Shown here one piece after another: positions 6,747 through 53,408 of a stretch of 53,408 nt of DNA; within the stretch, counting starts at the first letter, position 1, and every line of letters starts with the position of its first letter. Position numbers and translations under genes: made by a program. The DNA comes from Emiliania huxleyi CCMP1516 (Eukaryota), in the NCBI RefSeq assembly GCF_000372725.1, contig NW_005201791.1, positions 62,001 through 115,408 on the forward strand, written 5' to 3'. The notes beneath the pieces are model-generated. The model saw only the letters and a program-made list of their open reading frames with translations. It did not search any database and was not told the DNA's origin.

Positions 6747-9710
6747 ATGCCAGAGTCGGTCAAGGAGCGATTAGCTCGGATGAAGGCCGAGAAGGCTGCG
6801 GCGGCCGCCGCCGCCGCCCAAGCCGAGGAGCCTGCTCCCGCGCCGGCAGCGGAGCCTCCGGCGGCCGAGGCGAAGCCAGCGCCGGCAGTGGAACCTGCGG
6901 CGGCCGAGGCAAAGAAGGAGACTCCCAAAGAGCGGCTGGCGCGCATCAAGGCGGAGAAGGCAGCGGCGGCGGCAAAGGAGGATGCACCAGCAGCGGCCGA
7001 GCCCGCTGAAGATCCGCCGGCTCCTCCTTCAGCGGAGGAGGCTGCTGCGGGAGCCGAAGACCCCGCTCCCGCTCCGGCTCCAGAGGACACGATCGACGAG
7101 TCCAAGGCTGCCGAGCCTCCCGCCGAGCCGCCTGCGGAGGCGGCGGCGGCGGGTGAGGGCGGCCCGGCGGCGCCCGACGACGGTGCGAGCTCGGCGGCGG
7201 CGCAAAAGAAGGCGGAGATGAAGGCGCGCCGACCGCTTGGACGCGTCCCTCGGACCCCCGAGGCCTCGGCCTAACACTCCTCCGGTTGGGCGTTAGGCGC
7301 GGCTAGCTGCGATGAAGGCGGAAGGCCGCGCCGGGAAGGCCGCGACGCCAAGAAGGGGAATACGGATATTCTTGTCTCCCAACTAGCGCTCGAGAGGTCG
7401 CGTAGTCAGCCTTCAGCTGCATTCATGTATTCGTACCCCTCGCATTCACGCGGTGCTCTGACTACTCTGCACAAGACCGTACTCCCGCCCCTGACCACGT
7501 GCGCCGGGCCTTGCACTTTGATGTGTGCCGTGCCGGCTCCTGCCCGTGTCCGGGTGTGGAGATGCGAGGGGCTGCCTGGCCCCTTCCCCACCACGTTGTG
7601 CGTGTGGAGAGGCCCACGTACCCACCCGCCTAGGATGCGATGCTCGAGATCATCGGCGACGCGGTCGCGTCCGGCGGCGCAGCGGCTCTTGCCTCGGAGG
7701 TGATCGCGGCTAGAAAGAGCCAGGCGGACACGGCCTCCAGGGAGGAAGGCCCAGGCGGGGGAGACCCTGGCGATGGAGTGGCAGCAGACGACGCGTCCGA
7801 CGAGGCGGTGGCGCCTGAGGCGGCGGCAGCGCCAGCGGCGGCGGAGGCGGAGGCGGCGGCGGAGGCGGCGGAGGCGGCGGAGGCGGCGGAGGCGGCGGAG
7901 GCGGCGGTGGCGGCAGCGGCGGAGGAGGAGGAGGAGGAGGAGGAGGAGGCGGGGGCTGCTGCGGAGGCGTCGGCAGCCGATGGCGCGGCGGAAGCGGAGG
8001 GGGAGGCGGAAGCGGGGGAAATGGCGGCGGCGGCGGCGGCGGAGGAGGAGGAGGAGGAGGAGGCGGCGGCGGGGGAGGCGGCGGCGGCGGGGGAGGCGGC
8101 GGCGGCGGGGGAGGCGGCGGCGGCGGACACGGAGGCGGGCGGGCAGGGTGCGGAGGTGGAAAGCGGCGTCTCTTCTCCGGCGGCGGCGAACGCCCTCGCA
8201 GGCATGCTGGACGCGGTCGGCTCGTCCTCCGAGTCGGTGGGCTCCGCGCCAGCGTCCAACGCCTCGACGGACGCGGCGGAGGAGGACGACACGCCTAGAA
8301 GCGGACTGTCTCCCCATATCTCCCCATATCTCCCCATATCTCCCCATATCTCCCCATATCTCCCCATATCTCCCCATAGCTCCCCATAGCTCCCCATATC
8401 TCCCGCCCTAGAAGCGGAAGACGGACTCTTGCACCCCGCCTAGCGCTCGAGGGGCGCGCACTCCGCTGCATCCGACCCTCTTCCGCGGTATGCACTGTGG
8501 TCGCATCCCTCGTCTTCACACGAGCTGCTCTGAATACGCGGCGCGAGACCGCACTCCCGCCCTCACCTCGGCTCCACGACGCAGGCGGACGACGAACTCG
8601 CCGGCGTCGCGAGACGCATCAGCGCGGCTCCAAACGGGTGCATTGCCGGCCCCACCGGGGGGGAGCGCAAGGCAGAGCGGCTCGCCCGCGCGCGGCACAG
8701 CCTCCGCTCGAGTTGCGGCGACCCGGGCGACCGGGGCAGCCTACGGATGAGCCTTGGCGACCGCGCGCCGTCGCCGGCCGGCATGTCCGCGACACGTCCA
8801 TGACACGTCCGAGACATGTCCCTAGGCGACCGCGCGCCGTCGCCGGCCGGCATTGACGAGGAGGCGGAGGACGCCAGCCTGACGCCGCGAACAAAGGAGA
8901 CGCTTGTCGGCGCGGTCCGGCCGCTGCGGCAGTCGTACCACGCTGTGGAGAGCTCCCGCTCAAGCCTCGGCGACGCGCGCGAGGAGGCGGAGGGAAGCGC
9001 CGGCAGCGTCGAGGGCGAAGAGAAGGCGGTCGCAGAGGCGGCCAAGCGCAGAGCGGCTCACGACGACTAGAAGCGGAAGACGCATGCTTGTACTCCAACT
9101 GGCGCTCGAGAGGACACGGCTTCGGCTGTATTCCGTCGTGTACTGCAACCGCATCGCTTGTACTCCTGTCGCTCGTATTCACGCGGTGCTCTGATGACAC
9201 CGCACAGCACCGCACTCTCGCCCCCGAGGGTGGCGTATTCGTAGCACGTAGGACGGTGGCCGACGTTGGTATATGCACCACTAGTACTCTGCACACCGCC
9301 GTACTCCTGGCCATGTACTCCGCACGAACCGTCTTCTCGCCCCGAGGTTGGCGTATTCTGCACCTTAGGCTCACGACGCGGAGTTCGCGCTGCTGGCGCC
9401 GGTGCAGCTGCCAAAGGAGATGCTGGTGCGCAGCGAGGGGGCGGCGACGGAGCTGCACCAGACGGTGTGGGGGCGCGTCGAGGCCCCCCCGTCGCGCAAG
9501 TCTTGGTTCGGGAAGAAGCAGCACGTCGTCAAGCCGGTGCCGAACGCTAGAGGCGGTATTCTTGTACTCCAACTAGCGCTCGAGAGGACACGTGTTCAGC
9601 TGTACTCGGCCGTATTCAGCCGTATTCACTGTAGTCGCTTCCCTCGTATTCCCGCCCTGATGTTGGTGTATGCAGCACCTAGGTGCCGAACCAGAACCGC
9701 GTCTTGCGGG
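6747..9710 (+). CDS. Multi-exon Ala/Glu/Pro-rich low-complexity protein of unknown function (3' end in gap)
   Basis: ATG 6747; repeated KERLAR(M/I)KAEK motif; in-frame joins across predicted introns 8757-8825, 9056-9368 and 9537-9682; some junctions unresolved. Confidence 0.6.
9067..9368 (+). mobile_element. CTAGA(A/G)GCGG introner-like element
   Basis: Shared 5' sequence with 7348, 8408, 9547 and minus-strand ~29434; flanked by GGCTCACGACG (9055-9065, 9368-9378). Confidence 0.7.
9547..9682 (+). mobile_element. CTAGA(A/G)GCGG introner-like element
   Basis: Begins and ends with CTAG; flanked by GGTGCCGAAC (9536-9545, 9682-9691). Confidence 0.75.
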
Positions 9711-12450: not shown

Positions 12451-12591
12451 ATAAAATGAAAAAAACGCCACGTCGGCGAACCTCGGGCGAGAGTTAGGCG
12501 GCGCGCTGATAGACGAGAGTTAGGCCTGCTGGACGCGCGGCGCCTTCTCGTCGTCGGAGAACTCGATCTACCCCGGCGGGAGGACTGCACG

Positions 12592-16967: not shown

Positions 16968-17650
16968 GAGGTCTCAGCGACGCGATGTGTGTGAAAATGG
17001 GTTGAGAGGCTTAGCGCTCTGCTCCGGGAGGGTGAGAGAAGAAAAACAAACACGTGCCGGCTGCCGCAGTTGATCAGCTCTCGAGGAGGAGATGTACGAG
17101 GAGATCAGGAGCAGCAGGGACCCGAGGGACAACGTGGACGATGGCTAGTGCTTGTCCCCCGTCGGTAGGAGCCCGGCTAGAGTCGCCGACCACCCACCCC
17201 ACAAAAGAGAACCTCCTTGCGCAAAGAGGGTCGAGTGACCGCGCATTGGCTGAGCCCTGGTCTGACAGCCTGACAGCAAAAGCACATTGGGCGGGGCGGG
17301 GACCTCGGCTCCCCTTTTTGTCCAAATAAAAGTTTTAGGGCCAGCAACACGCACACCTACCTCATACACACATAGAGAGCTGCAGGTCCGTGTGACGGTG
17401 GTGTGGACGGCGTCGATGGACAGCGTGGGGCGGGAGACAGTACTGAGTACAAACAGACAGTATCCGACGACAGCTGCGCGCTGTGGAGTGCTCTCGCTCA
17501 GGGAGGGTCATGAATAGTCGACAAAGGCATGAGTAGTCAACAAAGTTCAGGCCCCCGGGGAGCGCATGGTTGTCATAATCAACGGGTGCGCCCGAGGAGG
17601 CGTCACCGTTTGTGGTTTGAGATAGGTCGTTGGCGGTGCTAGCGTCCGCG

Positions 17651-29154: not shown

Positions 29155-31480
29155 TCAGCCCAGCCGCTTGTGCTTCGCGGCCGCCGGCGCGCGCGTCTCC
29201 GACGAGTCATGGAAAAGGAATGCGAGAGCGATGACCACGTACCTACATGCTGAAGACACCGACATCAGGGCGGGAAGACGGCAGTGTGCAGAGTCTTCAT
29301 AGCGCTGCGGGAAGACGGGGGGGGGGGGGGGGGGCTGCGAATACAGTGAACACAGCTGAGCACGGCCGAATACAGCGGAGTCCGTGCCTCGCGGGTGCTG
29401 GCTGGAAAGACAAAGAGTCCGTGTTCCGCCTCTAGGCCTCGAGATACGGGGAGATACGGGGAGATACGGGGAGATACGGGGAGATATGGGGAGATCTTCC
29501 GCCTCTAGGACCACACGCACAGGCTGATGAGAGTAAGCCCCTTAAGCCAGTTGGAGCGGCCAGAGGGCAGCACCGTCGCCACGCCGAGGATGGTGAGCAC
29601 GAGGCAGGCCGTCTAGCCGCGAGATGACCCGAGATGACCCGAGATGGCGCGAGGTGGCGCGAGGTGGCGAGCACGAGGCAGGCCGTCTCGAAGGGCAGCA
29701 CCAGGAACAGCGAATGAATCTCGGGCGATCTCGGGTGTCATCGATCATCTGCAGACACGCACCACTCCCTGTCCCCCCCCCCCTCTCTCTGTCTCTTTGC
29801 ATTCATCAAATCTCCCATCGCACGCACCTCGAAGGGAAGCATATCGAGCGAGAGAGGCTCGCCATATGCCCACGCCGCGAGCACCTAGAAAAGAACACGG
29901 CGGGTAAAAAAGAAACAACAGCGCGCACGGGTGAGTAGGGAGAGCAGCACCGACGCCGGGAATACCTCGAGATACGGGGAGATGTGGGGGAGATAGGGGG
30001 GAGATATGGGGAGATAGCACCGACGCCGGGAAGCCCAGCAGCGTGATCTGCGTCGCCGACCCGACCGCGACTCCGATGGCGAGGTCGGGCTTGTTCCTGG
30101 CGGCGAGGGCGACCGCGTCTAAGGCCTCGAGATAGGGGGAGAGATGGGGGGGGGAGAGATGGGGGGAGATCTTGTTCCTGACGGCGAACATGACCGCGGA
30201 CGCGTGCTCGGCGGCGTTTCCGACGATGGGCAGCAAGATGGTGGAGACGAATGCGAGTGGAACCTTCGCACCCGCCGCGGCCCCCTGGATCGACCCGACA
30301 ACCACCTCGGACAGTCCCGCCGTGGCAGCGCACAGCAGCGCCAGCGCGACGGTCGACTGGCGGAAGCTTAGCTCCTCCTCCTCCTCCTCCTCCACCTCCT
30401 CCTCCTCCGCCGCCGCCGCCGCCGCCGCGGCCGCCTCCTCGTCCTTTTCCCCGTCGTCGTCGTCGTCTGCCGCAGCGGCGGGGAGGCAGGCCACTGTGTG
30501 CGGGCGGCGGCCGACGCCTGTGGGAGGAGGAGCATTCCAGCCTCGGGGCGGGCTGTGACGTCTCGCTGCTGGCTCCGCTCTGCCGCGCGGCAGACGGCCC
30601 CTCTCCTGGGTGTACGGGCAGGGGCTTCGCACGGCGTGCATGGCGACTGCAGTCCAGCGGAGCGCAGCCTCGAGCACGCGTGTTCGAAGGGGTGCTGGTG
30701 TGAGCTCAGACGCCCTCGCACTCCGCGTCTAGGGCCTCGGGAGAGGGGGAGAGAGGGGGGGAGATCTCGGGAGGTGCGGGGGAGATGCCGAGCTCAAAGG
30801 CGATCAAGCTCGCGTAGGAGAAGAGGAGCACGACGGAGACCCACCGCGAGAGCGAGAGCACGTCGCTCTCCGTGTCCTCGTGCCGCGACGACTTTGTCTC
30901 GCCTGCAGCGTGCAGCTTCGGGTTGTCGGGCGCGGGTGTCCTCTCACCAGCTGTCCTGTGAGCTGTGAGCTGTGCAAGTGTCTCGGGAGTGACCCTCGCC
31001 GAGGACGTCCGGAACAACCATAGTCACGGCGCCCAGGACCAGGACTGCGGCGTGCGCCTCTGCGCTCTTTTGGTCGTATCGCTGCGTGGCGTGCCGCACG
31101 CCCCCAAAGAAGAAGGCGCAGCCGAGCACGAGCAGCAGGTTCGAGAGGACCGAGCCCAGTAGCGAGAGCTGCACCACCCGCAGCAGCCCCTCGCGGATGG
31201 CGCAGAGCGACACGATGAGCTCAGTCGCGTTGCCAAAGGTGGCGTTGAGCAGCGCGCCAGCCTGGCTCGAAGTGTGGAGCGCCGCCTGCTCCGTGGCGTA
31301 GCCAATGCGCTCGGCGAGCGGGCAGAGCGCTGCAAGCGCGAGTAGGAAAGAGATCTCGTCGCCGATGCCGAGGCGCGCTGCCAAAAGCGCCGCAGGGCCG
31401 CACGGCAGGAGCAGATTCAGCCGCGAGCCGAAAAGGACGTGCAGCGCGGCGTGGGCGGCTGATTTGGTTCGTCGCCTCAT
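29155..31480 (-). CDS. CAX: Ca2+/H+ exchanger (CAX family), multi-exon
   Basis: LLNATFGNATE alpha-1 repeat; GSVLSNLLLVLG; acidic loop; LLPIVGNAAEH alpha-2 repeat; GSATQI; SNWLKG. Confidence 0.92.
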
Positions 31481-32009
31481 GCTCTCGGCTCGTGCAGGAA
31501 AGGCGGAGCGGCTGGTGCTGCGGCGACGCCTCCGCGCATTTCGATGGCGAAAAACTCCTCGGCAACCGATGCGAGTGGGGACTAGGGATCCCTTATATAG
31601 ATGTTAAGTGTGGGTAGAGGGAGATTCGCGCGAGCTGCGGGACCGCCGGGACGGCGGGCGGGTGATTGCGACTCGCCGCCGCTTTTGGCGACTTTTCGCG
31701 ACTTTTGGGACGCGCGATCGACCGGCGAGAACGATATGGCGGGCGAGGCCGTCACGGCCATGATCGTGGCTGACGACGGCGGCGACGACCCCCTGGCGGA
31801 CCGCCGCGAGGACCGGGAGGCGGCGGCGGAGCGGGAGAGGAAGGCGAAGGTGGCGAAGCTCAAGGCGCAGACGGCGAACGCGATGGAGGTGGTGCGGACG
31901 CAGCAGGCCTCGAAGGAGCGGGGAGCCTTCGACGAGGCGGCTCTCACTGGGATCCCTACCCAACCGATGGCGTGAGATAGGGCGCTGACCTTTCTCGCCG
32001 AGGCTCGCC

Positions 32010-32735
32010 GTGGCCCCACACGGCGCGGCCGGCCGCTGCGTGGAGGCGGCAGCGGGCGAGGTTGGCGAGCTGCTCGGCCTCATCGATAACGCCGACGTCA
32101 CGCGCCGCTTCGACGGCTACACGGACCGTGCGGCGACGGAGAAGAAGATCCTGCGCGACGTTGCGGCGGTCGGAGACCTCTACTTCTCGACGGGCGACCT
32201 CGTCCGGCAAGACGCGGAAGGGTTCGTGTACTTCGTGACCGCATCGGCGACACGTTTCGCTGGAAGGGCGAGAACGTGTCGACGGCGGAGGTGCGCGCAC
32301 CAGAGGCCAATCATCGATCGGAGAGATCTCACCGCGTGTGCATAACGACCCTCGCACCGAGTGCCCAAAGGTGGCGGAGATACTGAGCGCCGCTCCGGGC
32401 GTGAGCGAGTCGACAGTCTACGGCGTCTCTGTCGGCTCGCTCGAGGGCCGCGCCGGCATGGCGGCGCTCGTCGTCGAGGCCGCAGCTTCAGCGTTGAGGC
32501 GCTGGCCCAGACCGTGGCGTCCTTACCCCGGTACGCCCGGCCGCTCTTCGTGCGGCTCCTGCCGGCCCTAGAGCTCACGGCCACCTTCAAGATTCGGAAG
32601 GGCAAGTTGGTGGAGCAAGGCTTCGACCCGGCGGTCGTCAGCGACGTGTGGCTCTACGAGGAGGCGGCGGGGGCGTACAGGCCTCTGGATGTAGAGCTGC
32701 ACAGGCGGCTCGTAAGCGGGCAAGTAAAGCTCTGA
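32010..32735 (+). pseudogene. Fatty-acid transport protein / very-long-chain acyl-CoA synthetase C-terminal fragment
   Basis: YFSTGDLV, DRIGDTFRWKGENVST, YGV...GRAGMA and LPRYARPLFVR; apparent frameshifts near 32237 and 32480; no N-terminal part. Confidence 0.75.
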
Positions 32736-33243
32736 GCAAACGCCTCGGCTCTAGCTAGTAGCCACACGCGTCTACCTCTTGGAAGGAAAAACGCCAACCC
32801 TTTTCCTGGCTCACAAGCTAAGGATGTTCACAGGCCCTCACACTCTCCCGAATGGGGAGCCCCGGGTACTCTTTTCGTAGTCTTTTTTTACGAGCAGCTG
32901 TACTCGTCTAAGGCAGGGGTTGTGTTGCGCGCACCTGTCCGCGTCCCTTGCTGCACACAAGTGCTTTATCCCGCGCAGCCACCCGCCCCTACCGCGCACC
33001 AGCCCCGATCGCGCGGCGCGCGTGAATCAAAAACCACCGTAACATTCTTTTTTTGCACAACACTGTAAAATTCTTTTTAGCTAAGTGCCTCGCCGCCCAG
33101 AAAGAAAACAGACAGGGACGAGGACAGGGTCCTGACGCCGCGCCAATGGCGCTCAACTCCACACAGGGACAGGACGGGATTGCCGCGAGAAGAGACTCCG
33201 ACGCGAATTCTGACTAACGGCCAAGTCATAGGTCACCGCCTAC

Positions 33244-33965
33244 CTCGGCCTCACTGTTGCCCATGACGGTCGCAGCCTTCGAGGGGGTGGCCCAGACGGC
33301 AGGGTCGAAAGCCCAGCCCGCCTCCAGTTTCTTTGTGATCCTCGAGAGGACGCTGGTCGGCAGCCCTGCGGTCAGTTCCTGTGGGGTGCACGGTGGTATC
33401 GGCGCGCTTCACCCGCACCCACGTTCTTGTCTTCGTGTGACTGTGTTGGAGGCCCTATAGGCCAGGGGAGGCCGGGGTGGCGCACCTTTGCTGTCAGCCG
33501 GCCGTTCCCATCCACGTCGCACTTAGCGAAGATGTTGGAGATGGTGTCTCGCATTTTTTTGCTGTCTCGATTGAAGCGGAAGGCTTGGAGTGCTTCTGTG
33601 AACTCGGTCTGGTCCAGCCCGTTCCCATCCGTGTCGAAACACATGAGCGCCTTTGTCGCTGCCTCTTTCATCGCGTGGCGCTCGGTTGCAGCGGGCCGCC
33701 CCTCGGGAGATTTGGCGTAGGCAAGGGCCGCCTCCTCGGCCGTTTTATAGGTGCCGAGAGACACTGTCTTTCCATCACGCCTGACAGTGGCAGTGAAGTG
33801 ATCGGCAAATTTACACTTTCCCACATTCTGGAACTGCGAGACGTCGGACAAGCTGGGAATCAGGGCAAGGCCTTCCTCTGCTGCCTGCTGGACCACCTGA
33901 GCTGCAGGGTCCATTATTACGGACTCGTCGGCGGTCGCTCTGCACGAGGTGCATGCCCCCCCCAT
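33244..33965 (-). CDS. AP2-like domain plus two EF-hands; intron 33379-33485; 3' end uncertain
   Basis: MGGACTSC start; VRRDGKTVSLGTYKTAEEAALAY AP2-like motif; DTDGNGLDQTEF and DVDGNGRLTAK|E EF loops. Confidence 0.7.
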
Positions 33966-34051
33966 CGCGTGAGACGAGGGCCGTGGACGTAGGTGAGTAT
34001 ATATTGCCAGAGTGGCAGAGGACGTACGTACAATTCCCTCATAGTCTTGCA

Positions 34052-34122
34052 GCATCGTTGGTCTAGTGGGAGAATGCTCGCCTGCCACGCGGGAGACCCG
34101 GGTTCGATTCCCGGACGATGCA
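34052..34122 (+). tRNA. tRNA-Gly(GCC)
   Basis: GCATCGT/ACGATGC acceptor stem; anticodon loop CTGCCAC; GGTTCGATTCC T-loop; downstream TTTT terminator. Confidence 0.97.
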
Positions 34123-34509
34123 AAGTTTTATTTTGTAAATTGTTTTCCTGGGCTCCCAGAAAGAGGCTTGCGCGCGTCCCCTTAGTGCGTTACGGTCGTG
34201 TAACACAGCCAACCGCACGGTGCTGCTCTACCTCAACACACACGCGACGAACGGACGATATTGCTGGCAGCATGAGCATCCGCCAGCACCCCCGTGAGCT
34301 GACAGCCCCGCCCCCCTGCGCACTCCAGTACACTCCTCGTACGCAACACCAGCAAACTACACCATGCTCTCGCCGCGCGCCCCCTCTCTCTCGCTCTCGC
34401 GCGCGGGGAACCGGAGACTCCCCCTGTGCCCACCGGCAGGCAAACGTGCCAGCAACAACCGCGCGAGCCTCCGGCCTCGCTGCGGGCCTCTCTCCCCCCT
34501 CGGCCCTGC

Positions 34510-37500
34510 TCACGCCGCCTCCTCGGTGGCAAACGTGACGAGCAGCGCCTTCTGCGCGACGACGTCGCCCGCGGCGGCGTGCAGCACGTCGACGGTCGCC
34601 TCGGCGGCGGCGACGAGCGTGTGCTCCATCTTCATCGCCTGCACAACACGAGACAGGGCGGGCGCGGCTCAGAAGAAGGGGAGGGCGACACGCGCGCGCG
34701 TGCTCCAGCTTCATCGCGCCTCGAGCACCGCGACCGCCTCGCCCGGCGCGACGCGCTGGCCGGGGGCGACGAGCAGCTGCACGAGCTTGCCTGCGGGACA
34801 GCCGACACCCGCGTCTCCCTCGGGCGATCAAACAGCGAGACGGGCGCGGCCGCGCGCACCCGGCATCGGCGCGACAATCGGCCGTTGCACGGCTCCAGCC
34901 TCCGACGCCGCCGCCTCCGCCGCACGCGCCGCGGCCTGGGTGGCGACGTCCGAGACGGACACGCGCAGCTGCTCTCCGCCCACAAACAAGTGAACCTCGG
35001 CCGCGGCCTGAGGGCCAACGGTGGCGTGGCAATGAGGAGAGGGAGGAGGCGGGGCGAGGGGAGCCGGGGACGGCGATAGCGTGGCGAGAAGGAGAGGAGA
35101 GGAAGGGGGGGGGGGAGATGATCGTGCAGCACCGCAAGCTCGTGTTTGTAGCTGGTCATCTCTCCCCCCACCTCCCCCCACCCCACCCCCCCCTCCCCCC
35201 CATCTCGCGCACCGCGGGCTCATCCGTGGCTGGCCGCTCGATGAAGGCCGCGCCCCGCACGCTCTCGCCCCCAATCTGCGCGCGGAAGATGCGGCTCGCC
35301 CCAGCGGCAGACTCCTCCACCAGCTCGACCTACTCACCGACACGAGTTCATGACCGATCAAGGGCCCCCGCGGGTCCGCGAGACGGCCACCGGCAGCACC
35401 GCCTGCCCCTCGGACGGCCAATCTCGGGCAATCTCGGCAGCACCACCTGCCCCTCGGACGGGCAATCTCGGGCAATCTCGGCAGCACCGCCTGCCCCTCG
35501 GACGGGCAATCTCGGGCAATCTCGGGCAATCTCGGCAGCACCACCTGCCCCTCGGACGGGCAATCCGGCAGAATCTCGGCCAATCTCGGCAGCACCACCT
35601 GCCCCTCGGACGGCTGCCAGCCGTCCGCGCCGCCGCCGCCGCCGCCCTCGCCGCCCTCGACGCGGTACCCGTACGACGCGCCGCCCTCGCCGGCGCGCCA
35701 CAAGCGGAGCTGCATCGGCGCGCCCGCGGGCGCCCCCTCCTCGTCCGACGCCTGTAGGAGAAAGGAGAGACACAGCGGGTACACCACAAGAGAAGACGAG
35801 ACACACACCCTGCATCCTCGTCCGGCGCCTGCAGCAGCAGCGGCGAGGCGGCGGCGGAGGCCCCCCCTCCGCCTCCGGCAACAGACAAACCGCAGTGGGG
35901 GAACCCCAGCTTCTCAAACGGCAACGGCGGCCGGGCGGCGGCGGCGCCGCCGCCTTAACCGGCTTTCCCGGCGGGGGGCTGCTTTTCCCCCCCCCAGCAA
36001 ACGGCGGCGAGGGCCATCAAGTGCGGCGGCGGCGGCGGCGTGGGCGGGAAGAGGGCGTCGTGGTGCTGCGGAATGAAGGCGGTGTGCACCTCGCCGGCGA
36101 GGAACTGAGGCGTCTCGAGCACGCGCCTGGGAAAGACTCGCGCGCAGTCTCGGCGAATCTCGGCGAATCTCGGCGAATCTCGGCGAATCTCGAGCACCGC
36201 CTAAGAAAGCCTCGCGCACGGGCCCTCCGCCTCCGCCTCCGCCTACCCCTTCCCCCCCCCCCCCCCACTACCCCCCCCCCCCCCCTTTCTGAACGTCCCG
36301 AGCGCGCGCCGGCAAAAAGAGACGTTGGTCGGCAGCCCGACGGTCTGCCACTGGCCGAGGGCCGCGTGGAGGCGGCGGCACGCGGCGGCGCGGTCCGGGC
36401 CGCGCACAATCAGCTTGGCGACCATCGGGTCGTAAAAGACCGACACGTCGTCTCCTATACTCTCGGCACACTCCTGCGCTGGTCCCGTGGCGTCGTCGGG
36501 TCGTCCGCCCGACGCACAGCGCGTCGTCGCCGCGGACAAAGCCCATGTCGACCCGCGTCGCGAGGCCGTCTGTGGAGGCGCGCACCTACCAGCCACCACG
36601 CACGACTCCACCCCCTCGGCGCGCGCCGCGACGCCGTCTGCGCATGCGCCGCACCTCTCTCGGGCCCTCTCGGGTGCTCTCGGGCCCTCTCGGGTGCTCT
36701 CGGGTCCTCTCGGGCCCTCTCGGGTCCTCTCGGGTCCTCTCGGGCCCTCTCGGGTGCTCTCGGGCCCTCTCGGGTGCTCTCGGGTGCTCTCGGGCCCTCT
36801 CATTTCCTCTCGCCGCACCTCGGCGGGCGCGACGGTGACGCCCTCCTCGGGCGGCGTCGCCAGGTGGCGCAGCGTGCCCGAGGCGGGGAAGAAGTTGGAG
36901 GCGGGGCGCTCGGCGTAGATGCGCGCCTCGATCGAGTGGCCCGACAGGGAGAGCTCGGGCTGCGAGAGGGGGAGAGGCTCGCCGGCGGCGACGCGCAGCT
37001 GCCACTCGACCAAGTCGAGGCCTACGCGGGAGAGCAAGCGGGGGGCGGGGGGGGGGGTCAGGGGAGATGGCACGGAGCTCGGAGCTGCCAGCTCGACCGC
37101 GTCGACGCCGGTGATCATCTCCGTCACGGGGTGCTCGACCTGCAGCCGCGTGTTCATCTCCATAAAGTAAAAGTGGTTTGGCGCGCTCGCGTCGGCGATG
37201 AACTCGACGGTGCCCGCGCCGACGTAGTCCACCTATGACCAAGGAGAAGGGGCGGGTGGCGAAGCTCATCGTCGCGGTGCAGGCCCTCGCGCCGACGTAG
37301 CCAACCGCACGCGCCGCGCGCACGGCGGCAGCACCAAGCGACTCTCGCAGCTCCGGCGAGACTCCGGGTGCGGGCGCCTCCTCCAGCACCTGTGGGGGAG
37401 ATAGGGGGAGATATGGGGAGATCGGGGCGGGGCGGGGGGGGGTATGGGGCGCGGGCGCCTCGTCCAGCACCGTTTGGTGGCGGCGGCGAGGGCGGGGGTG

Positions 37501-38972
37501 GGCTTGGAGGTGGGGGCGATGGAGGGGCGGGCTCGGCGGAGGCGGCGACGGAGGCGGTGGGCTCGGCGGCGGGGAGGGAGGCGGCGGGGAGGGCGGGGGT
37601 GGGGTGGGCGGACCTTTTGGTGGCGGCGCTGGACGGAGCAGTCGCGCTCGAAGAGGTGGACCGCGCCGCCGAGGCTGTCGCAGAAGACTTGCACCTGCCG
37701 GGAAGAGGGGAGGGGGGGGGGGGGGAGGCGGGTGGGGTGGGGTTTGGTTGATTTTGCGACGGGAAAAGGCGGGGGAGGTTTCAACAAGAACTTTCCTCCC
37801 CCCCTGCGGGAACTTTTCCCAGGCCCCCCCCCCTCGCAAAAGGAAATTCTCGGGGGAGATCTGGGGGAGATCTGGGGGAGATCTGCGGGCAGATCCGCGG
37901 GGAGAAGAAGACGTGCACACCTCGATGTGTCGTGCCGAGTCGAGATAGCGCTCGACCAGCAGCCGCGCGTCGCCAAAGGAGGCCGCCGCCTCGCGCTGTG
38001 CCGACTCGATCGCGGCGAGCAGCTCGCCTGTTCGCCCGGTGGCTGCTGGCGCAGACATCCGTTCACCCTCGGCCCGCCCTCGCAAGCTCGCCCTGCGAGC
38101 GCACGATGCGCATCCCCACCATACCTCCCCATATCTCCGCCAGATCTCGGCTAGATCTCGCCCTGCGAGCGCACGATGCGCATCCCCTTGCCGCCGCCGC
38201 CCAGCACCGCCTTGAGCGNNNNNNNNNNNNNNNNNNNNNNNNNNNNNNNNNNNNNNNNNNNNNNNNNNNNNNNNNNNNNNNNNNNNNNNNNNNNNNNNNN
38301 NNNNNNNNNNNNNNNNNNNNNNNNNNNNNNNNNNNNNNNNNNNNNNNNNNNNNNNNNNNNNNNNNNNNNNNNNNNNNNNNNNNNNNNNNNNNNNNNNNNN
38401 NNNNNNNNNNNNNNNNNNNNNNNNNNNNNNNNNNNNNNNNNNNNNNNNNNNNNNNNNNNNNNNNNNNNNNNNNNNNNNNNNNNNNNNNNNNNNNNNNNNN
38501 NNNNNNNNNNNNNNNNNNNNNNNNNNNNNNNNNNNNNNNNNNNNNNNNNNNNNNNNNNNNNNNNNNNNNNNNNNNNNNNNNNNNNNNNNNNNNNNNNNNN
38601 NNNNNNNNNNNNNNNNNNNNNNNNNNNNNNNNNNNNNNNNNNNNNNNNNNNNNNNNNNNNNNNNNNNNNNNNNNNNNNNNNNNNNNNNNNNNNNNNNNNN
38701 NNNNNNNNNNNNNNNNNNNNNNNNNNNNNNNNNNNNNNNNNNNNNNNNNNNNNNNNNNNNNNNNNNNNNNNNNNNNNNNNNNNNNNNNNNNNNNNNNNNN
38801 NNNNNNNNNNNNNNNNNNNNNNNNNNNNNNNNNNNNNNNNNNNNNNNNNNNNNNNNNNNNNNNNNNNNNNNNNNNNNNNNNNNNNNNNNNNNNNNNNNNN
38901 NNNNAGAAGGCGCGGCCCCCGGGTCCGGTCGTCAGGGGAAGAAAACGGAAGAGGGAGAGAATGATATCGAGC

Positions 38973-39004
<32 letters not shown>

Positions 39005-39790
39005 GAGGGAGAGAGGGAGAGACCGAGAGAGAGAGGGAGAGAGAGAGAGAGAGAGAGAGATTCCTGCGCTCACGTGTGGCGTCTGAGGGCGTCTGCTAGC
39101 ACACCCTCGGGGGCTAGAGGTGTGTACAGCGTGTGGCAGGGCATGCGCCAGCAGTACCCCGTAGGGCCCGGGGGGGGGGGGGGGCGGTCTCGCGCAGACC
39201 AGTCCCGCCGTCTGCCCCGTGTGGGCCACAGCGAACAGCGCCTCGTGCGACCGCCTCTCGGCCGCCTCTCGGCCGCCTCTCGGCGGTCTCTCGGCCGCCT
39301 CTCGGCCGTCTCTCGGCCGCCTCTTGGCGGTCTCTCGGCGATCTCTCGGCGATCTCTCGGCGGTCTCTCGGCGATCTCTCGGCGGTCTCTCGGCAATCTC
39401 TCGGCAATCTCTCGGCAATCTCTCGGCAATCTCTCGGCAATCTCTCGGCAATCTCTCGGCAATCTCTCGGCAATCTCTCGGCAATCTCTCGGCGGTCTCT
39501 CGGCGGTCTCTCGGCTCTCTCTCGGCGGTCTCTCGGCGGTCTCTCGCCTCGGCGGACAGCGTCTCGTACGCCTGGTCCTCCCCGTGGTAGCCGGGCAGCA
39601 GCGGCACGCCCGCCGCCTCCATCAGCCGCTTGGCCGCGTCCTACACAAGCGGGGGGCGTCCGGGAAGAGGGTCGGAGGGGGCGGCCGCTCCCGCGCCCTC
39701 GCCGCGCGGACACAGGCTGCTGCTCCTTGGAGCCCATCGCGCGCATGGAGGAGCCGGGCGGGCCGATGAAGGACAGGCCCGCCGCCGCAA
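34510..39790 (-). CDS. MCCC1: Biotin carboxylase + biotin carrier subunit, methylcrotonyl-CoA carboxylase alpha-like; many introns, one gap, N-terminus missing
   Basis: [76 protein letters not shown] and EAMKM. Confidence 0.85.
38970..39060. repeat. Imperfect (GA)n microsatellite
   Basis: Visible. Confidence 0.85.
39250..39545. repeat. Intronic 11-bp minisatellite (GGCAATCTCTC and variants)
   Basis: Visible; similar 10-11 bp arrays at ~8309-8401, 29440-29495, 36655-36800 and 39960-40185. Confidence 0.9.
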
Positions 39791-41055
39791 CCTGCGGGAG
39801 GGGGGGGGCGGGGGGGCGGGGGGCGGGGGGGGTGGGGGCGGGGGGGGGGGAGGGGTGGAGGGAGAGGGAGAGAGGGAGAGAAATGCGCCTCGAGCGCAGC
39901 GAGGTCGAGTGGAAGGCGTGCGGCTCGACCTGCTCGCGCGCGAGCGTCTCGCGGACCTAATCTCGGGCGATCTCGGGCGATCTCGGGAGATCACGGGTGA
40001 TCTCGCGTGATCTCGGGTGATCTCGGACACTCTCGGGCGTTCTCCGTGTTCACGGCGCATGTCGGGTAATCTCGGGCAATCTCGAGTCGCCTCGCATGCA
40101 GATGGGCGATCTCGGTGTTAACGGGCGCGCATCGTAAGAGCATCAGTCAATCTCGGGCGATCTCGGTTGATCTCGGGCGATCTCTGCGAGCAAGAATCAT
40201 GCCTCTCAGTCATCTCGTAAATCTCACTCTCTCGAGTCACCTCGCGCGCCGCGTGGTCGCCGTCCTGGCACTCCTCCGCGCCGGCACAGACCTCCTGGCA
40301 GGGGGGGGAGGGGGGTGGGTGGGGGGGAGCGGTGGCAATGTGAGCGTTGTGTCGGTGGGTGGCGGTGGCGGTGGCGAGGGTGGCGGAGGGAAGGGAGGAG
40401 GCCGCGGCGGCGGCGGGGCGGCGGCGCGCACCGGTGGTGTCGGCGATCGGCTCGCGCACCGGTGGTGTCGCATCGACGACGCGCACACCCTGGCCGACCC
40501 GCCTCCGGCCGCACCTCCCAGCAACGCGCTCTCCGCAGCGCCCGACACGCCGCCGCGCCGTCGAGCGCAGCCGCCGGCGAAACGACCGCCGGCCGCTCAC
40601 CCCGCCTATGGGAAGAGGCGCGGGCGGCGTCGGACGCGATCCGAGTGTGCGGTGGCACGGTGAGGGCCGGGCGATGGGCGGCAGTGCCGCAGGGCAGCGG
40701 CGGCGCTGCGCAGGCGAGCGGCAGCGGCGGGCGTCGGCGCTGTCCTCGGCGCGGCCCGAGCGGCCCGCGGCGCTGTGCGCCGAGGCACCGGCCGCGGCCG
40801 GGGCACGTGCGTCGGGGAAACGACGCACCCGCTTCAGCGGCGGCCGACCAGGCAGCATTCTGCCGCAGAGTCGGCTCCGTCCGGTAAGAAGAATTCGGGC
40901 GGAAGGCGGCCTCTTTGTATGTTTTTTCCTTTTGGGGCATTGAAGAGTTTGTGCCTGTGTGTGGTCCGACGCGGTGCCCCTTTTTGTTCTTGGTTTCCCA
41001 CACAGCTGGGCTTCGCGGGCTTCCAGCCAGGGTACGGCGGTTCTGACTGAAAGGC

Positions 41056-41356: not shown

Positions 41357-41859
41357 TCTCGCTACTGCTGTTGCTGTTGAAGCTGCTGTCTAGTCGCTAT
41401 GCAATTGTCGCTGTCTGTTAGCTACGGTTGCTGTGCTAACGTGCGCATCGTGTTCACGCACACCGCACCACTTTCCGCCCCCGAAGGATAGGAGTGGTGC
41501 ATTCGGGTGCGCATCGTGTTCACGCACGTGTGTGTGCTACCGCAGAGTGGCCTGGAGGCGACAGATTGCTTCGTAGAAGCGCTCCTATGCCTTGTCCCCG
41601 GGAGGTGTCGCAGCGTGCGAGCGGTCGTCGTCGCTCCGAGCTGGCCAAGCGTATTGGCGGGTCGCCTCACGCTTGACCTGCTGGAGTACCGCTCGCACGC
41701 CGCCCCGGGGTGGCGGGGTGGTGGTCCCTGCGAGACCACCAGACGCCGTGACTCACGGGAGGGGCAGCCAAGCCCTCCACGTGCTCCACGACGCCACCCG
41801 CCTACTAGCGTTTCGTGTGAGCTACGGGCGGCGTGCAGGCTCGCTGAGCGCATCTCGCT

Positions 41860-44800
41860 GAGGCAGCTGTGAACGCACGCGGCTGAGCGAGCTCGGCAGA
41901 GCGATTGTCTCATCTCTTGAGCGAAATTGCGATCTCGCCATCGTGCCATGCAGCGGCACAAGTCGAGCTGTGAACACGCGGTGTGAATGAGCTCGGCAGC
42001 GAGATTGTCTCATCTCTTGAGCGAGATTGTGATCTCGCGATATGAACGAGATTGTGATCTCGCGCTAGCGCTCGCGATGGGCCTTGCCATGTATCGATCA
42101 CATGGCGAGCTCGGCAGAGAGAGTGTCTCACCTCTTGAGCGAGAGATTAGCATCTCGCTATAGTGCCATGCAGCGGCACAAGTCGAGCTGTGAACACGCG
42201 GTGTGAACGAGCTCGGCAGGGAGATTGTCTCATCTCTGGAGCGAGAGATTAGCATCTCGGGATAGTGCCATGCATCTCTTGAGCGAGAGATTGGCATCTC
42301 GCTATAGTGCCATGCAGCGGCACAAGTCGAGCTATGAACACGCGGTGTGAACGAGCTCGGCAGGGAGATTGTCTCATCTCTTGAGCGAGAGATAAGCATC
42401 TCGCTATAGTGCCATGCAGCGGCACAAGTCGAGCTGTGAACACGCGGTGTGAACGAGCTCGGCAGGGAGATTGTCTCATCTCTGGAGCGAGAGATTAGCA
42501 TCTCGGGATAGTGCCATGCATCTCTTGAGCGAGAGATTGGCATCTCGCTATAGTGCCATGCGGCGGCACAAGTCGAGCTGTGAACACGCGGTGTGAGTGA
42601 ACGAGCTCGGCAGGGAGATTGTCTCATCTCTTGAGCGAGAGATTCGCATCTCGCTATAGTGCCATGCAGCGGCACAAGTCGAGCTGTGAACACGCGGTGT
42701 GAACGGGCTCGGCAGGGAGATTGTCTCATCTCTTTGAGCGAGAGATTAGCAGCTCGCTATAGTGCCATGCAGCGGCACAAGTTGAGCTGTGAGCACGCGG
42801 TGTGAACGAGCTCGGCAGGGAGATCGTCTCATCTCTTGAGCGAGAGATTAGCACCTCGCTTAGTGCCATGCAGCGGCACAAGTCGAGCTGTGAACACGCG
42901 GTGTGAACGAGCTCGGCAGGGAGATTGTCTCATCTCTGAAGCGAGAGATTAGCATCTCGCTATAGTGCCATGCAGCGGCACAAGTCGAGCCGTGAACACG
43001 CGGTGTGAACGAGCTCGGCAGGGAGATTGTCTCTTCTCTTGAGCGAGAGATTAGCATCTCGCTATAGTGCCATGCAGCGGCACAAGTTGAGCTGTGAACA
43101 CGCGGTGTGAACGAGCTCGGCAGGGAGATTGTCTCATCTCTTGAGCGAGAGATTAGCATTTCGCTATAGTGCCATGCAGCGGCACAAGTCGAGCTGTGAA
43201 CACGCGGTGTGAACGAGCTCGGCAGGGAGATTGTCTCATCTCTTGAGCGAGAGATTAGCATCTCGCTAGAGTGCCATGCAGCGGCACAAGTCGAGCTGTG
43301 AACACGCGGTGTGAACGAGCTCGGCGGGGAGATTGTCTCATCTCTTGAGCGAGAGATTAGCATCTCGCTATAGTGCCATGCAGCGGCACAAGTCGAGCTG
43401 TGAACACGCGGTGTGAACGAGCTCGGCGGGGAGATTGTCTCATCTCTGGAGCGAGAGATTAGCATCTCGCTATAGTGCCATGCAGCGGCACAAGTCGAGC
43501 TGTGAACACGCGGTGTGAACGAGCTCGGCAGGGAGATTGTCTCATCTCTTGAGCGAGAGATTAGCATCTCGCTATAGTGCCATGCAGCGGCACAAGTCGA
43601 GCTGTGAACACGCGGTGTGAACGAGCTCGGCAGGGAGATTGTCTCATCTCTGGAGCGAGAGATTAGCACCTCGCTATAGTGCCATGCAGCGGCACAAGTT
43701 GAGCAGTGAACACGCGGTGTGAGCTCGGCAGGGAGATTGTCTCATCTCTTGAGCGAGAGATTAGCATCTCGCTATAGTGCCATGCAGCGGCACAAGTCGA
43801 GCTGTGAACACGCGGCGTGAACGAGCTCGGCAGGGAGATTGTCTCATCTCTGGAGCGAGAGATTAGCACCTCGCTATAGTGCCATGCAGCGGCACAAGTG
43901 GAGCCGTGAACACGCGGTGTGAACGAGCTCGGCAGGGAGATTGTCTCATCTCTGGAGCGAGAGATTAGCATCTCGCTATAGTGCCATGCAGCGGCACAAG
44001 TCGAGCTGTGAACACGCGGTGTGAACGAGCTCGGCGGGGAGATTGTCTCATCTCTGGAGCGAGAGATTAGCATCTCGCTATAGTGCCATGCAGCGGCACA
44101 AGTCGAGCTGTGAACACGCGGTGTGAACGAGCTCGGCGGGGAGATTGTCTCATCTCTTGAGCGAGAGATTAGCATCTCGCTATAGTGCCATGCAGCGGCA
44201 CAAGTCGAGCTGTGAACACGCGGTGTGAACGAGCTCGGCGGGGAGATTGTCTCATCTCTTGAGCGAGAGATTAGCATCTCGCTATAGTGCCATGCAGCGG
44301 CACAAGTCGAGCTGTGAACACGCGGTGTGAACGAGCTCGGCGGGGAGATTGTCTCATCTCTTGAGCGAGAGATTAGCATCTCGCTAGAGTGCCATGCAGC
44401 GGCACAAGTCGAGCTGTGAACACGCGGTGTGAACGAGCTCGGCAGGGAGATTGTCTCATCTCTGGAGCGAGAGATAAGCATCTCGCTATAGTGCCATGCA
44501 GCGGCACAAGTTGAGCTGTGAACACGCGGTGTGAACGAGCTCGGCAGGGAGATTGTCTCATCTCTGGAGCGAGAGACTAGCATCTCGCTAGTGCCATGCA
44601 GCGGCACAAGTCGAGCTGTGAACACGCGGTGTGAACGAGCTCGGCAGGGAGATTGTCTCATCTCTTGAGAGAGAGATCAGCATCTCGCTATAGTGCCATG
44701 CAGCGGCACAAGTCGAGCTGTGAACACGCGGTGTGAACGAGCTCGGAAGGGAGATTGTCTCATCTCTTGAGCGAGAGATTAGCATCTCGCTATAGTGCCA

Positions 44801-45900
44801 TGCAGCGGCACAAGTCGAGCTGTGAACACGCGGTGTGCACGAGCTCGGCGGGGAGATTGTCTCATCTCTTGAGCGAGAGATTAGCATCTCGGTATAGTGC
44901 CATGCATCGGTCTTGGGCGAGAGCTTGAGCGAGAGATTAGCATCTCGCTATAGTGCCATGCAGCGGCACAAGTCGAGCTGTGAACACGCGGTGTGAACGA
45001 GCTCGGCAGGGAGATTGTCTCATCTCTGGAGCGAGAGATTAGCATCTCGCTATAGTGCTATGCAGCGGCACAAGTTGAGCTGTGAACACGCGGTGTGAAC
45101 GAGCTCGGCAGGGAGATTGTCTCATCTCTTGAGCGAGAGATTAGCATCTCGCTATAGTGCCATGCAGCGGCACAAGTCGAGCCGTGAACACGCGGTGTGA
45201 ACGAGCTCGGCAGGGAGATTGTCTCATCTCTTGAGCGAGAGATAAGCATCTCGCTATAGTGCCATGCAGCGGCACAAGTCGAGCTGTGAACACGCGGTGT
45301 GAACGAGCTCGGCAGGGAGATTGTCTCATCTCTTGAGCGAGAGATTAGCATCTCGCTATAGTGCCATGCAGCGGCGCAAGTCGAGCTGTGAACACGCGGT
45401 GTGAACGAGCTCGGCAGGGAGATTGTCTCATCTCTGGAGCGAGAGATTAGCATCTCGCTATAGCGCCATGCAGCGGCACAAGTCGAGCTGTGAACACGCG
45501 GTGTGAACGAGCTCGGCAGGGAGATTGTCTCATCTCTTGAGCGAGAGATTAGCATCTCGCTATAGGGCCATGCAGCGGCACAAGTCGAGCTGTGAACACG
45601 CGGTGTGAACGAGCTCGGCAGGGAGATTGTCTCATCTCTGGAGCGAGAGATTAGCATCTCGCTATAGGGCCATGCAGCGGCACAAGTCGAGCTGTGAACA
45701 CGCGGTGTGAACGAGCTCGGCAGGGAGATTGTCTCATCTCTGGAGCGAGAGATTAGCATCTCGCTATAGTGCCATGCAGTGGCACAAGTCGAGCTGTGAA
45801 CACGCGGTGTGAACGAGCTCGGCGGGGAGATTGTCTCATCTCTTGAGCGAGAGATTAGCATCTCGCTATAGTGCCATGCAGTGGCACAAGTCGAGCTGTG
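41860..45900. repeat. Satellite array, 102-bp unit, about 40 copies
   Basis: Unit GAGCTGTGAACACGCGGTGTGAACGAGCTCGGCAGGGAGATTGTCTCATCTCTTGAGCGAGAGATTAGCATCTCGCTATAGTGCCATGCAGCGGCACAAGTC. Confidence 0.97.
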
Positions 45901-49705: not shown

Positions 49706-49919
49706 TGGCCGTGCGCCGTGCCGCCGTCAAGCGTCATAGCGGCCGAGGCGCGGGACCGTCTCGGTGCGGCGAGGAGGTCGCGTCGTGCCCCGATTTCCGT
49801 CATCTGAGCCTCCATACCCTCTAGAGAATCGCCGGAGAGATCCAGCGGCCTGCCGAAGCTGCTGTGTACCCTCCCAGGGCGCCATCCATCCCGCTCGAGG
49901 AGGACATAGTGAAATCCCA

Positions 49920-50566
49920 CACACACGCGACGAACGGACGATATGCTGGCAGCATGAGCATCCGCCAGCACCCCCGTGAGCTGACAGCCCCGCCCCCCTG
50001 CGCACTCCAGTACACTCCTCGTACGCAACACCAGCAAACTACACCATGCTCTCGCCGCCCCCTCTCTCTCGCTCTCGCGCGCGGGGAACCGGAGGCTCCC
50101 CCTGTGCCCACCGGCAGGCAAACGTGCCAGCAACAACCGCGCGAGCCTCCGGCCTCGCTGCGGGCCTCTCTCCCCCCTCGGCCCTGCTCACGCCGCCTCC
50201 TCGGTGGCAAACGTGACGAGCAGCGCCTTCTGCGCGACGACGTCGCCCGCGGCGGCGTGCAGCACGTCGACGGTCGCCTCGGCGGCGGCGACGAGCGTGT
50301 GCTCCATCTTCATCGCCTGCACAACACGAGACAGGGCGGGCGCGGCTCAGAAGAGGGGAGGGCGACACGCGTGCGCGTGCTCCAGCTTCATCGCGCCTCG
50401 AGCACCGCGACCGCCTCGCCCGGCGCGACGCGCTGGCCGGGGGCGACGAGCAGCTGCACGAGCTTGCCTGCGGGACAGCCGACACCCGCGTCTCCCTCGG
50501 GCGATCAAACAGCGAGACGGGCGCGGCCGCGCGCACCCGGCATCGGCGCGACAATCGGCCGTTGCA
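49920..50566 (-). repeat. Duplicate of the MCC-alpha 3' exons and 3' flank (~34237-34888)
   Basis: Near-identical sequence; stop at 50188-50190. Confidence 0.9.

Positions 50567-52126: not shown

Positions 52127-53408
<1,282 letters not shown>

What the first reader, a model, noticed from the sequence alone, without database searches (positions are those of the whole stretch)
29613..38161. Introns carrying an internal copy of the spliced exon-exon junction
Seen on the minus strand: CAX intron 29613-29827 contains 29669-29700, made of the upstream exon end (13/14) plus the downstream exon start (18/18). CAX intron 29885-30020 contains a 17/17 junction copy (29946-29962). MCC intron 37390-37613 contains 37447-37485 (14/15 + 22/24). 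MCC intron 38028-38161 contains 38085-38117. Region 35390-35612 holds about five tandem junction copies. Inference: either serial duplication-plus-filler events on a formerly intronless site, or mRNA/cDNA-templated repair writing spliced sequence back into the intron. The copies also create decoy or recursive splice sites.
Basis: partly seen in the sequence, partly recalled or inferred. Interest (0 to 1): 0.75.

Follow-up and report, generated by a model that had tools for sequence, protein, structure and literature searches.

The report
Introns built by repeated boundary duplications
Several introns in two genes of the alga Emiliania huxleyi hold copies of their own exon ends next to short-repeat filler DNA, likely the scars of successive DNA duplications that first made and then lengthened each intron, rather than spliced mRNA written back into the gene.

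Summary
The repeats are real and far above chance (4 of 20 introns against 0 of 380 mismatched pairings). Only two of the five named cases are true exon-exon junction copies (37390-37613, 29613-29827). Two are copies of exon end plus intron start, with 2 and 0 junction-specific bases. The five-copy array repeats the donor region, and RNA places the real acceptor at 35330. All five fit one recipe: a duplication of 11-31 bp around a repeat-rich filler, mostly a 10-11-bp minisatellite. One event likely made a 64-81-nt intron starting with a copy of the next exon; a later one duplicated the donor or acceptor region. Four copies contain intron bases, which spliced mRNA cannot supply. A sister-lineage protein shows the array intron without the array, and another algal lineage has the same build. 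Spliced proteins remove each intron whole, so no micro-exons were seen. Closest known: serial staggered-break introns of Daphnia. New here are longer duplications, minisatellite filler and an apparent bias to splice sites (6 of 7, small hand-picked set). The scan noted similar single scars on other DNA. mRNA-templated repair is not needed but not excluded for two introns.

The parts
29155..31480 (-). Ca2+/H+ exchanger (CAX) gene, 7 exons, 6 introns
   Evidence: P0122 100% on exon 1; open frame of the model; last four junctions in spliced proteins P0252, P0253, P0256
29613..29827 (-). CAX intron with a true junction copy: inferred older intron 29687-29827 (141 nt, ends in a 13/14 copy of the upstream exon end) plus an acceptor-side duplication
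   Evidence: spliced whole in 3 proteins
29595..29688 (-). 20-bp exact duplication (29669-29688 and 29595-29614: AG plus 18 exon bases) around a 54-nt filler of 10-bp period
29885..30020 (-). CAX intron: inferred older 66-nt intron (29885-29950) plus a 17-bp exact donor-region duplication (30016-30032 and 29946-29962) with a 53-nt filler; no junction-specific base
30097..30177 (-). 81-nt GA-AG intron, one-step type: duplication across AG|GA (10 bp exact core, 16/21 upstream match) with minisatellite filler; the database gene model misses it
   Evidence: spliced in P0252, P0253, P0256 and retained with filler in P0255, P0257
29424..29509 (-). 13-bp duplication around a 60-nt filler inside intron 29243-29520, not on a splice site (the counter-example to splice-site bias)
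34510..39790 (-). 3-methylcrotonyl-CoA carboxylase alpha (MCC) gene, residues 96-754; 14 complete introns in view, one more runs into the N gap; residues 1-95 are not in the window
   Evidence: RNA contigs 9 and 10
35330..35598 (-). MCC intron holding five copies of exon end plus donor (donors at 35598, 35544, 35490, 35446, 35402) separated by 10-bp-period filler; inferred older intron 35330-35402 (73 nt)
   Evidence: RNA joint of 269 nt; P0248 reads from the exon straight into the sequence that follows the last copy
36127..36309 (-). MCC intron starting with a 14/16 copy of the next exon and holding a degenerate copy of intron end plus exon start followed by 10-bp-period filler
36586..36818 (-). 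MCC intron: inferred older 69-nt intron (36586-36654, starts with a degenerate copy of the next exon) plus an 11-bp donor duplication with a 153-nt filler; the second copy of the gene in the window has the same build with a 143-nt filler
37390..37613 (-). MCC intron with a true junction copy at 37447-37485: inferred older 81-nt GT-AG intron (37390-37470, starts with a 22/24 copy of the next exon) plus a 16/17 donor duplication with C-rich filler; the inner AG now reads CG
   Evidence: spliced whole in 9 of 9 proteins
38028..38161 (-). MCC GC-AG intron: inferred older 64-nt intron (38028-38091) plus a 31-bp exact donor duplication (38157-38187 and 38087-38117) with a 39-nt filler
   Evidence: X1 and X9 contigs; spliced whole in 9 of 9 proteins
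8756..8853 (+). Same build in another gene: 29-bp exact duplication around a 40-nt filler of 10-bp period, giving a predicted 69-nt GC-AG intron
   Evidence: splicing not tested

Best explanation
The internal copies are likely scars of successive DNA-level duplications, each repeating 11-31 bp of the gene on both sides of a repeat-rich filler. Shown: the paired repeats, the fillers, and removal of each whole intron in spliced products. Step 1 (inferred): an insertion with duplication in an exon makes a 64-91-nt intron. The first copy gives the donor (GT, GC or GA all work in this alga) and the filler or the second copy gives the AG, so the intron starts with a copy of the next exon. Step 2 (inferred): a later event of the same kind overlaps the donor or acceptor and leaves the old boundary inside. 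Exon end from step 2 next to the exon-start copy from step 1 looks like a spliced junction. Step 3 (inferred, weak): inner sites are outcompeted or mutate, as at 37471. The most likely cause is fill-in repair of staggered double-strand breaks with slippage-built or captured minisatellite filler; no enzyme was identified.
For: Intron start resembles the next exon start (score 8 or more) in 6 of 20 introns against 3 of 380 non-cognate pairs. Exact duplications of 31, 11, 17, 20 and 13 bp flank fillers. Four internal copies match exon end plus intron start. Removing the outer unit from the 5 donor-side cases leaves GY-AG introns of 64, 81, 69, 73 and 66 nt, close to the 69-91 nt of 9 simple introns (chance about 8e-4, length window chosen after seeing the data). 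P0248, from a lineage about 98% identical, reads into the array intron without the array. X6 contig 20 stops matching at 38117, exactly where an allele lacking the outer unit would. One-step introns of the same build occur at 30097-30177 and 8756-8853. L005 has 21-32-bp duplications containing AGG[TCA] around repeat fillers, and both L002 introns hold donor-region copies. The L003/L005/L007/L008/L011 lineage has 3 MCC introns, none at an E. huxleyi position. Serial staggered breaks are described for Daphnia (PMC4202315, passages).
Against: No presence/absence allele was read letter by letter. The X6 hint rests on where a contig stops, and that contig also diverges at 37918 for unknown reasons. 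P0248 could come from an assembly that collapsed the array. L002 has an intron at the same place as 37390-37613, so that site may be old, and the tree could not polarise it (conflicting topologies). In 29613-29827 the upstream copy ends exactly at the donor, so the first event must have brought its own GT. Only 1 of 20 introns ends in a clear copy of the upstream exon. Only two genes were analysed, and the enzyme is not identified.
Confidence: 0.65

Rival explanations
1. A retro-type enzyme (non-LTR target-primed reverse transcription, or a telomerase-like activity) inserts the 10-11-bp repeats at nicks, making the variable-length target duplications. The serial logic is the same; only the maker differs.
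For: Duplication lengths vary from 11 to 31 bp. Four CAX fillers share a similar end motif (sequence). The filler families are very abundant in all four runs (depth peaks). Variable duplications and repeat tails are typical of non-LTR insertions (own knowledge).
Against: Filler units differ between introns, occur in both orientations and often start or end on microhomology with the duplicated target, which fits local slippage.
Confidence: 0.17
2. Spliced mRNA or cDNA served as the template in break repair and wrote the exon-exon junction into an existing intron.
For: Two introns hold true chimeras with 13-14 and 21-22 matching bases on each side. The 37390-37613 position is shared with L002, so it may predate the copy. 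6 of 7 second events overlap a splice site. RNA-templated repair exists in human cells (PMC12065846, passages).
Against: Three of the five named cases are not junction-specific. Four copies include intron-start bases. Both true chimeras split into two ordinary duplication-plus-filler units. The reported signature of repair from spliced mRNA is whole-intron deletion (PMC12065846).
Confidence: 0.1
3. The copies are functional micro-exons, or recursive or alternative splice sites.
For: 37390-37470 is a GT-AG unit, and retaining it or the first array unit would stay in frame without a stop.
Against: Clean junctions in 9 of 9, 9 of 9, 10 of 10 and 5 of 6 MCC proteins; the sixth is a retained intron. 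Clean junctions in 3 CAX proteins. The inner AG at 37471 is lost. Use of the inner sites at 38091, 29950, 36654 or 29687 shifts the frame. Contigs drop rare isoforms, so low-level use is not excluded.
Confidence: 0.04
4. The copies are assembly chimeras of a Sanger draft in GC-rich, repetitive DNA.
For: The assembly is visibly poor nearby: shared base differences at 35814-35916 in X1, X9 and X11, garbled sequence near 52130-52480, and MCC residues 1-95 missing.
Against: X9 contigs hold both sides of the 38028-38161 duplication; X1, X9 and X6 cover the 36586-36686 part. The second gene copy repeats the 36586-36818 build. P0255 and P0257 read into the 30097-30177 filler. The copies carry point differences from the exons.
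Confidence: 0.04

Closest known systems
Daphnia pulex neointrons from single and serial staggered double-strand breaks (PMC4202315, passages read)
   Same: Direct repeat of an exon end at the other end of the intron, filler of unknown source, a staggered-then-staggered class, internal repeats in 61% of new introns, frequent parallel gain at one site.
   Different: Repeats there are 4-17 bp and marginally AT-rich; here 11-31 bp and GC-rich. The filler here is mostly a 10-11-bp minisatellite. Second events here sit mostly on splice sites, and GC and GA donors are used. Polymorphism was shown in Daphnia and is only hinted at here.
Intron gain by tandem genomic duplication across AG|GT (review PMC3443670, passages read)
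   Same: The duplicated segment supplies donor and acceptor and leaves the coding sequence unchanged, as at 30097-30177 and 8756-8853.
   Different: Filler lies between the copies, many targets lack AG before the donor, and repeated rounds build nested copies.
Introners (PMC9860276 and PMC12130899, passages read)
   Same: One splice site comes from the target duplication and the other from the insert; an Introner family is reported from the haptophyte Chrysochromulina sp.
   Different: Introner duplications are 3-9 bp and the inserts form families of near-identical copies. The units here have variable duplications and variable fillers. A separate Introner-like family does occur in the window (see Noticed in passing).
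RNA-templated double-strand break repair (PMC12065846, passages read)
   Same: Could in principle place spliced-junction sequence in DNA.
   Different: Its reported scar is whole-intron deletion, not a junction copy inside a retained intron.

Membership tests
Staggered-break (duplication plus filler) intron gain, Daphnia type | Direct repeat of flanking exon sequence at or near the intron ends, above background | tested here: met
   6 of 20 against 3 of 380 for intron start against next exon; internal copies 4 of 20 against 0 of 380
Staggered-break (duplication plus filler) intron gain, Daphnia type | Intron absent from orthologous genes of outgroups | tested here: inconclusive
   None of the E. 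huxleyi positions occurs in the L007 lineage; 1 of 6 positions in residues 96-300 is shared with L002; tree unresolved
Staggered-break (duplication plus filler) intron gain, Daphnia type | Alleles with and without the insert, or with only the first of two inserts | tested here: inconclusive
   P0248 lacks the array; the X6 contig 20 edge fits an allele without the outer unit but its letters were not shown
Staggered-break (duplication plus filler) intron gain, Daphnia type | Made by end-joining repair of a staggered break | not testable with these tools
   Inferred from the scar only
Tandem genomic duplication across a protosplice site | Duplicated segment contains AG|G and both copies serve as the splice sites | tested here: met
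   Met for the one-step intron 30097-30177 and for the donor unit of 37390-37613 before its inner AG was lost; not met for the outer units of 29885-30020, 38028-38161 and 29613-29827
Introner (transposon-derived intron family) | Short fixed-length target duplication (3-9 bp) | tested here: not met
   11-31 bp and variable
Introner (transposon-derived intron family) | Many near-identical full-length inserts at unrelated sites | tested here: inconclusive
mRNA/cDNA-templated repair | Copied sequence is spliced and contains no intron bases | tested here: not met
   Four copies match exon end plus intron start; only 2 of the 5 named cases are purely exon-exon
mRNA/cDNA-templated repair | Copy crosses a second spliced junction | tested here: inconclusive
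   Copies are at most about 40 nt and flanking exons at least 55 nt, so none can show it
Recursive splicing (zero-length exon) | Intact internal AG|GT used as an intermediate site | tested here: not met
   The only candidate (37471) reads CG|GT in this assembly; nascent RNA not available

The most novel reading that the evidence does not exclude
Haptophyte algae run a splice-site-targeted duplication process. Breaks or nicks form at exon-intron borders (through splicing-coupled R-loops or fixed nucleosome linkers), and a polymerase adds 10-11-bp repeats before resealing. Introns are then born and extended again and again at their own boundaries, giving a genome-wide, datable record of intron birth without a transposon, with RNA possibly guiding some events.
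Probability: 0.2. Interest if true: 0.8.

Novelty: new variant of a known kind. Interest (0 to 1): 0.52.

Why it matters
Where new introns come from is a long-open question, and clear non-transposon cases are few. Here many introns of two ordinary genes still show how they were likely built, in a species with many resequenced strains, so birth, growth and decay of splice sites can be tested in populations. It also helps explain poor gene models in this alga: the database models of both genes mis-splice at such sites (P0122 misses the GA-AG intron; P0003 reads into exon-like intron starts). If second events really aim at splice sites, that would link splicing or chromatin to where DNA breaks.

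Tried and rejected
No whole genome is held, so there is no genome-wide count. Reads could be laid only on MCC 34500-38200; CAX has no read support. All four runs were contigs, the joint and piece tables were cut (216 and 25223 rows not shown), and no RNA piece was listed above 36800. A filler pattern found 0 matches in viral contigs. The one metagenome scan gave 13 loci and none from E. huxleyi: 6 intron-bearing eukaryote loci of two lineages (L002; L003, L005, L007, L008, L011), one intron-free relative (L012) and six more distant loci that I did not use for intron positions. The five alleles of the L007 lineage differ only in filler length, with no presence/absence insertion. The first tree used a mis-cut second exon of L002; the corrected tree gave another, weakly supported topology, so intron 241 was not polarised. 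The idea that introns commonly end in a copy of the upstream exon failed (1 of 20). Loss of AG in copies was noted (2 of 3 mismatches at 37447-37485) but is too small a sample. The automated scan missed the degenerate acceptor-region copy in 36127-36309, found later by alignment. The repeat scan filtered out the 31-bp and 29-bp duplications. The E. huxleyi genome paper was not held; that it mentions 10-11-bp repeats in introns is my recall. PMC13518057, PMC3488318 and 10.1101/2024.05.26.595999 (passages) and PMC11782384 (abstract) add nothing on this build.
Full report
Setting. The window comes from the coccolithophore Emiliania huxleyi CCMP1516: two database proteins of that strain are 100% identical to CAX exon 1. 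The region holds a Ca2+/H+ exchanger gene (29155-31480, minus) and most of a 3-methylcrotonyl-CoA carboxylase alpha gene (34510-39790, minus). No whole genome was held, so all counts come from these two genes.

Gene structure. A spliced alignment of the intron-free protein P0244 placed 13 MCC introns. I added 35752-35828 by hand; RNA contig 10 of run X11 supports it. RNA contig 9 supports four more introns between 34639 and 35598. The six CAX introns were set by hand and give an open frame; the last four junctions occur in three spliced proteins. Donors among the 20 introns are 11 GT, 7 GC and 2 GA, in line with the published donor mix for this species (56% GC, 40% GT, 4% GA in curated genes; PMC4028052, passages). 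Three of the MCC proteins are from MMETSP transcriptomes. The rest are from short JGI or ENA contigs of unstated type, so they show the spliced form but may come from other strains.

The observation. Only two are truly junction-specific: 37390-37613 (14/15 + 22/24) and 29613-29827 (13/14 + 21/22). In 29885-30020 the downstream 5 bases are also the intron's own start, and in 38028-38161 only 2 of 7 differ from it. The array at 35390-35612 lies inside intron 35330-35598 (269-nt RNA joint), and its five units match the intron start (11-12 of 12) better than the next exon (7-8 of 12).

Anatomy. Each case splits into units of a direct repeat around a filler: 31 bp + 39 nt (38161), 17 + 53 (30020), 20 + 54 (29686), 11 + 153 (36818), 13 + 60 (29509), and 16/17 + about 126 nt of C-rich sequence (37613). 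Most fillers have a 10-11-bp period and occur in both orientations. In the five donor-side cases, taking out the outer unit leaves a GY-AG intron of 64, 81, 69, 73 or 66 nt, while nine simple introns measure 69-91 nt. The chance of this is about 8e-4 if the copy could lie anywhere, but I chose the 60-95 window after seeing the data. These inner introns start with a copy of the next exon, as do many plain introns here (score 8 or more in 6 of 20 against 3 of 380). So a 'junction copy' is exon end from a late donor duplication placed beside an exon-start copy from the event that likely made the intron. Intron 29613-29827 is the mirror case: a 141-nt intron ending in a copy of the upstream exon, then a 20-bp acceptor duplication. 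One-step examples are 30097-30177 (GA-AG) and 8756-8853 (predicted only).

Intermediate states. P0248, from a lineage about 98% identical in protein, retains the intron after residue 600 and reads from the exon straight into the sequence that follows the last array copy. This fits the pre-array state, though assembly collapse is possible. Contig 20 of marine DNA run X6 matches 37918-38117 with one difference and stops at the last base of the 31-bp repeat, as an allele without the outer unit would. Its further letters were not shown and it also diverges at 37918, so this is a hint only. The second MCC copy in the window has the same build at 36586-36818 with a different filler length.

Relatives. 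The metagenome scan gave 13 loci. One lineage (L003, L005, L007, L008, L011; 73-77% protein identity) has three MCC introns, after residues 300, 399 and 457, none at an E. huxleyi position. L002 (86%) covers residues 1-300 and has introns after 241, shared with 37390-37613, and after 300. Gain is therefore likely for most E. huxleyi introns, but the site at 241 may be old or gained twice; the trees did not settle it. L005 has 21-32-bp repeats containing AGG[TCA] around fillers of 8-11-bp period, and both L002 introns hold copies of their donor region (50/55 and about 33/41 bases). I take these loci to be haptophytes from their place in the tree and their shared repeats; no call names them.

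Splicing. Junctions are clean in 9 of 9 (38161), 9 of 9 (37613), 10 of 10 (36818) and 5 of 6 (35598; the sixth retains the intron) MCC proteins, and in three CAX proteins. No micro-exon use was seen, but contigs hide rare forms. Most inner sites would shift the frame. Use of the old acceptor at 37471 would add 27 in-frame codons without a stop; that AG now reads CG, consistent with selection but based on one unconfirmed base.

Bias to splice sites. Of 7 clear events in pre-existing introns, 6 overlap a donor or acceptor, against 2.5 expected for uniform placement (P about 0.006). I picked these by hand. I left out 36127-36309 (overlaps, degenerate), 8294-8418 (another gene, apparently internal) and four introns with filler but no clear repeat (39547 onward, 37920, 35212, 30788). 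The bias is a lead, not a result.

Artefact check. X1 and X9 contigs break exactly at the 31-bp repeat and X9 holds the filler side. P0255 and P0257 read into the 30097-30177 filler. The copies at 37447-37485, 29669-29700 and 29946-29962 lack independent DNA support here.

Mechanism and comparison. The best fit is serial repair of staggered breaks with filler, as described for Daphnia, including a staggered-then-staggered class and frequent parallel gains (PMC4202315, passages). Tandem duplication across AG|GT is the related accepted route (PMC3443670, passages). A retro-type inserter could make the same scars and remains open. Spliced-mRNA templating cannot give the four copies that include intron bases, and its reported scar is whole-intron loss (PMC12065846, passages), but it is not excluded for the two true chimeras. 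The units are not Introners by duplication length (PMC9860276, passages).

Novelty. Eight searches listed no paper describing this build in E. huxleyi or other haptophytes; I saw listings and abstract starts only, except for the papers named. The genome paper was not held, and I did not open the supplements of the two Introner surveys, which may list this species. Two earlier notes of this scan report similar exon-copy-plus-filler introns on other protist DNA, unchecked by me. Verdict: a new variant of a known route to introns; interest 0.52.

Noticed in passing
window 7340-7470, 8407-8584, 9066-9369, 9546-9682 (+) and 29243-29436 (-): A dispersed, diverged intron-sized family: all 10 pairs align above the maximum of 100 shuffles (scores 53-100 against at most 37), and two members have 10-11-bp target repeats that supply the donor. 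It looks Introner-like and is distinct from the minisatellite fillers; two members carry a filler insertion that duplicates their first 12-13 bases.
   Followed up: partly
window 39641-39725 and 30097-30177 (-): Two GA-AG introns, both supported by spliced proteins (9 of 9 and 3 proteins). The database models P0003, P0121 and P0122 mis-splice them.
   Followed up: yes
window 39790-40900: MCC residues 1-95 are not in the window. Upstream of a C-rich stretch near 39800-39880 lie exon-like pieces of what seems to be another gene, which suggests a mis-join in the draft assembly.
   Followed up: partly
window 49919-50566 and 52130-53408: A second, near-identical copy of the MCC 3' end and middle, probably the other haplotype assembled in tandem; its part near 52130-52480 is garbled low-quality sequence.
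   Followed up: partly
window 35814-35990: Base differences shared by X1, X9 and RNA run X11 and a false stop in the frame indicate sequencing errors in this exon of the assembly.
   Followed up: partly
window 41850-45900: Long tandem array of a roughly 76-bp unit that contains the same short motif family as the fillers (seen).
   Followed up: no
MCC residue 300; L002:5940, L007:2249: An intron after residue 300 is shared by L002 and the L007 lineage (and implied by P0005 and P0007) but is absent from E. huxleyi: a possible precise loss.
   Followed up: partly
window 12583-13155 (+): Intron-free open frame of about 190 codons ending in a motif that resembles a monooxygenase-like domain (recalled, not tested).
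   Followed up: no
window 17650-20600 (-): Long intron-poor gene for an astacin-like metalloprotease with repeated extracellular modules and a likely membrane anchor (read from the sequence; label recalled, not tested).
   Followed up: no
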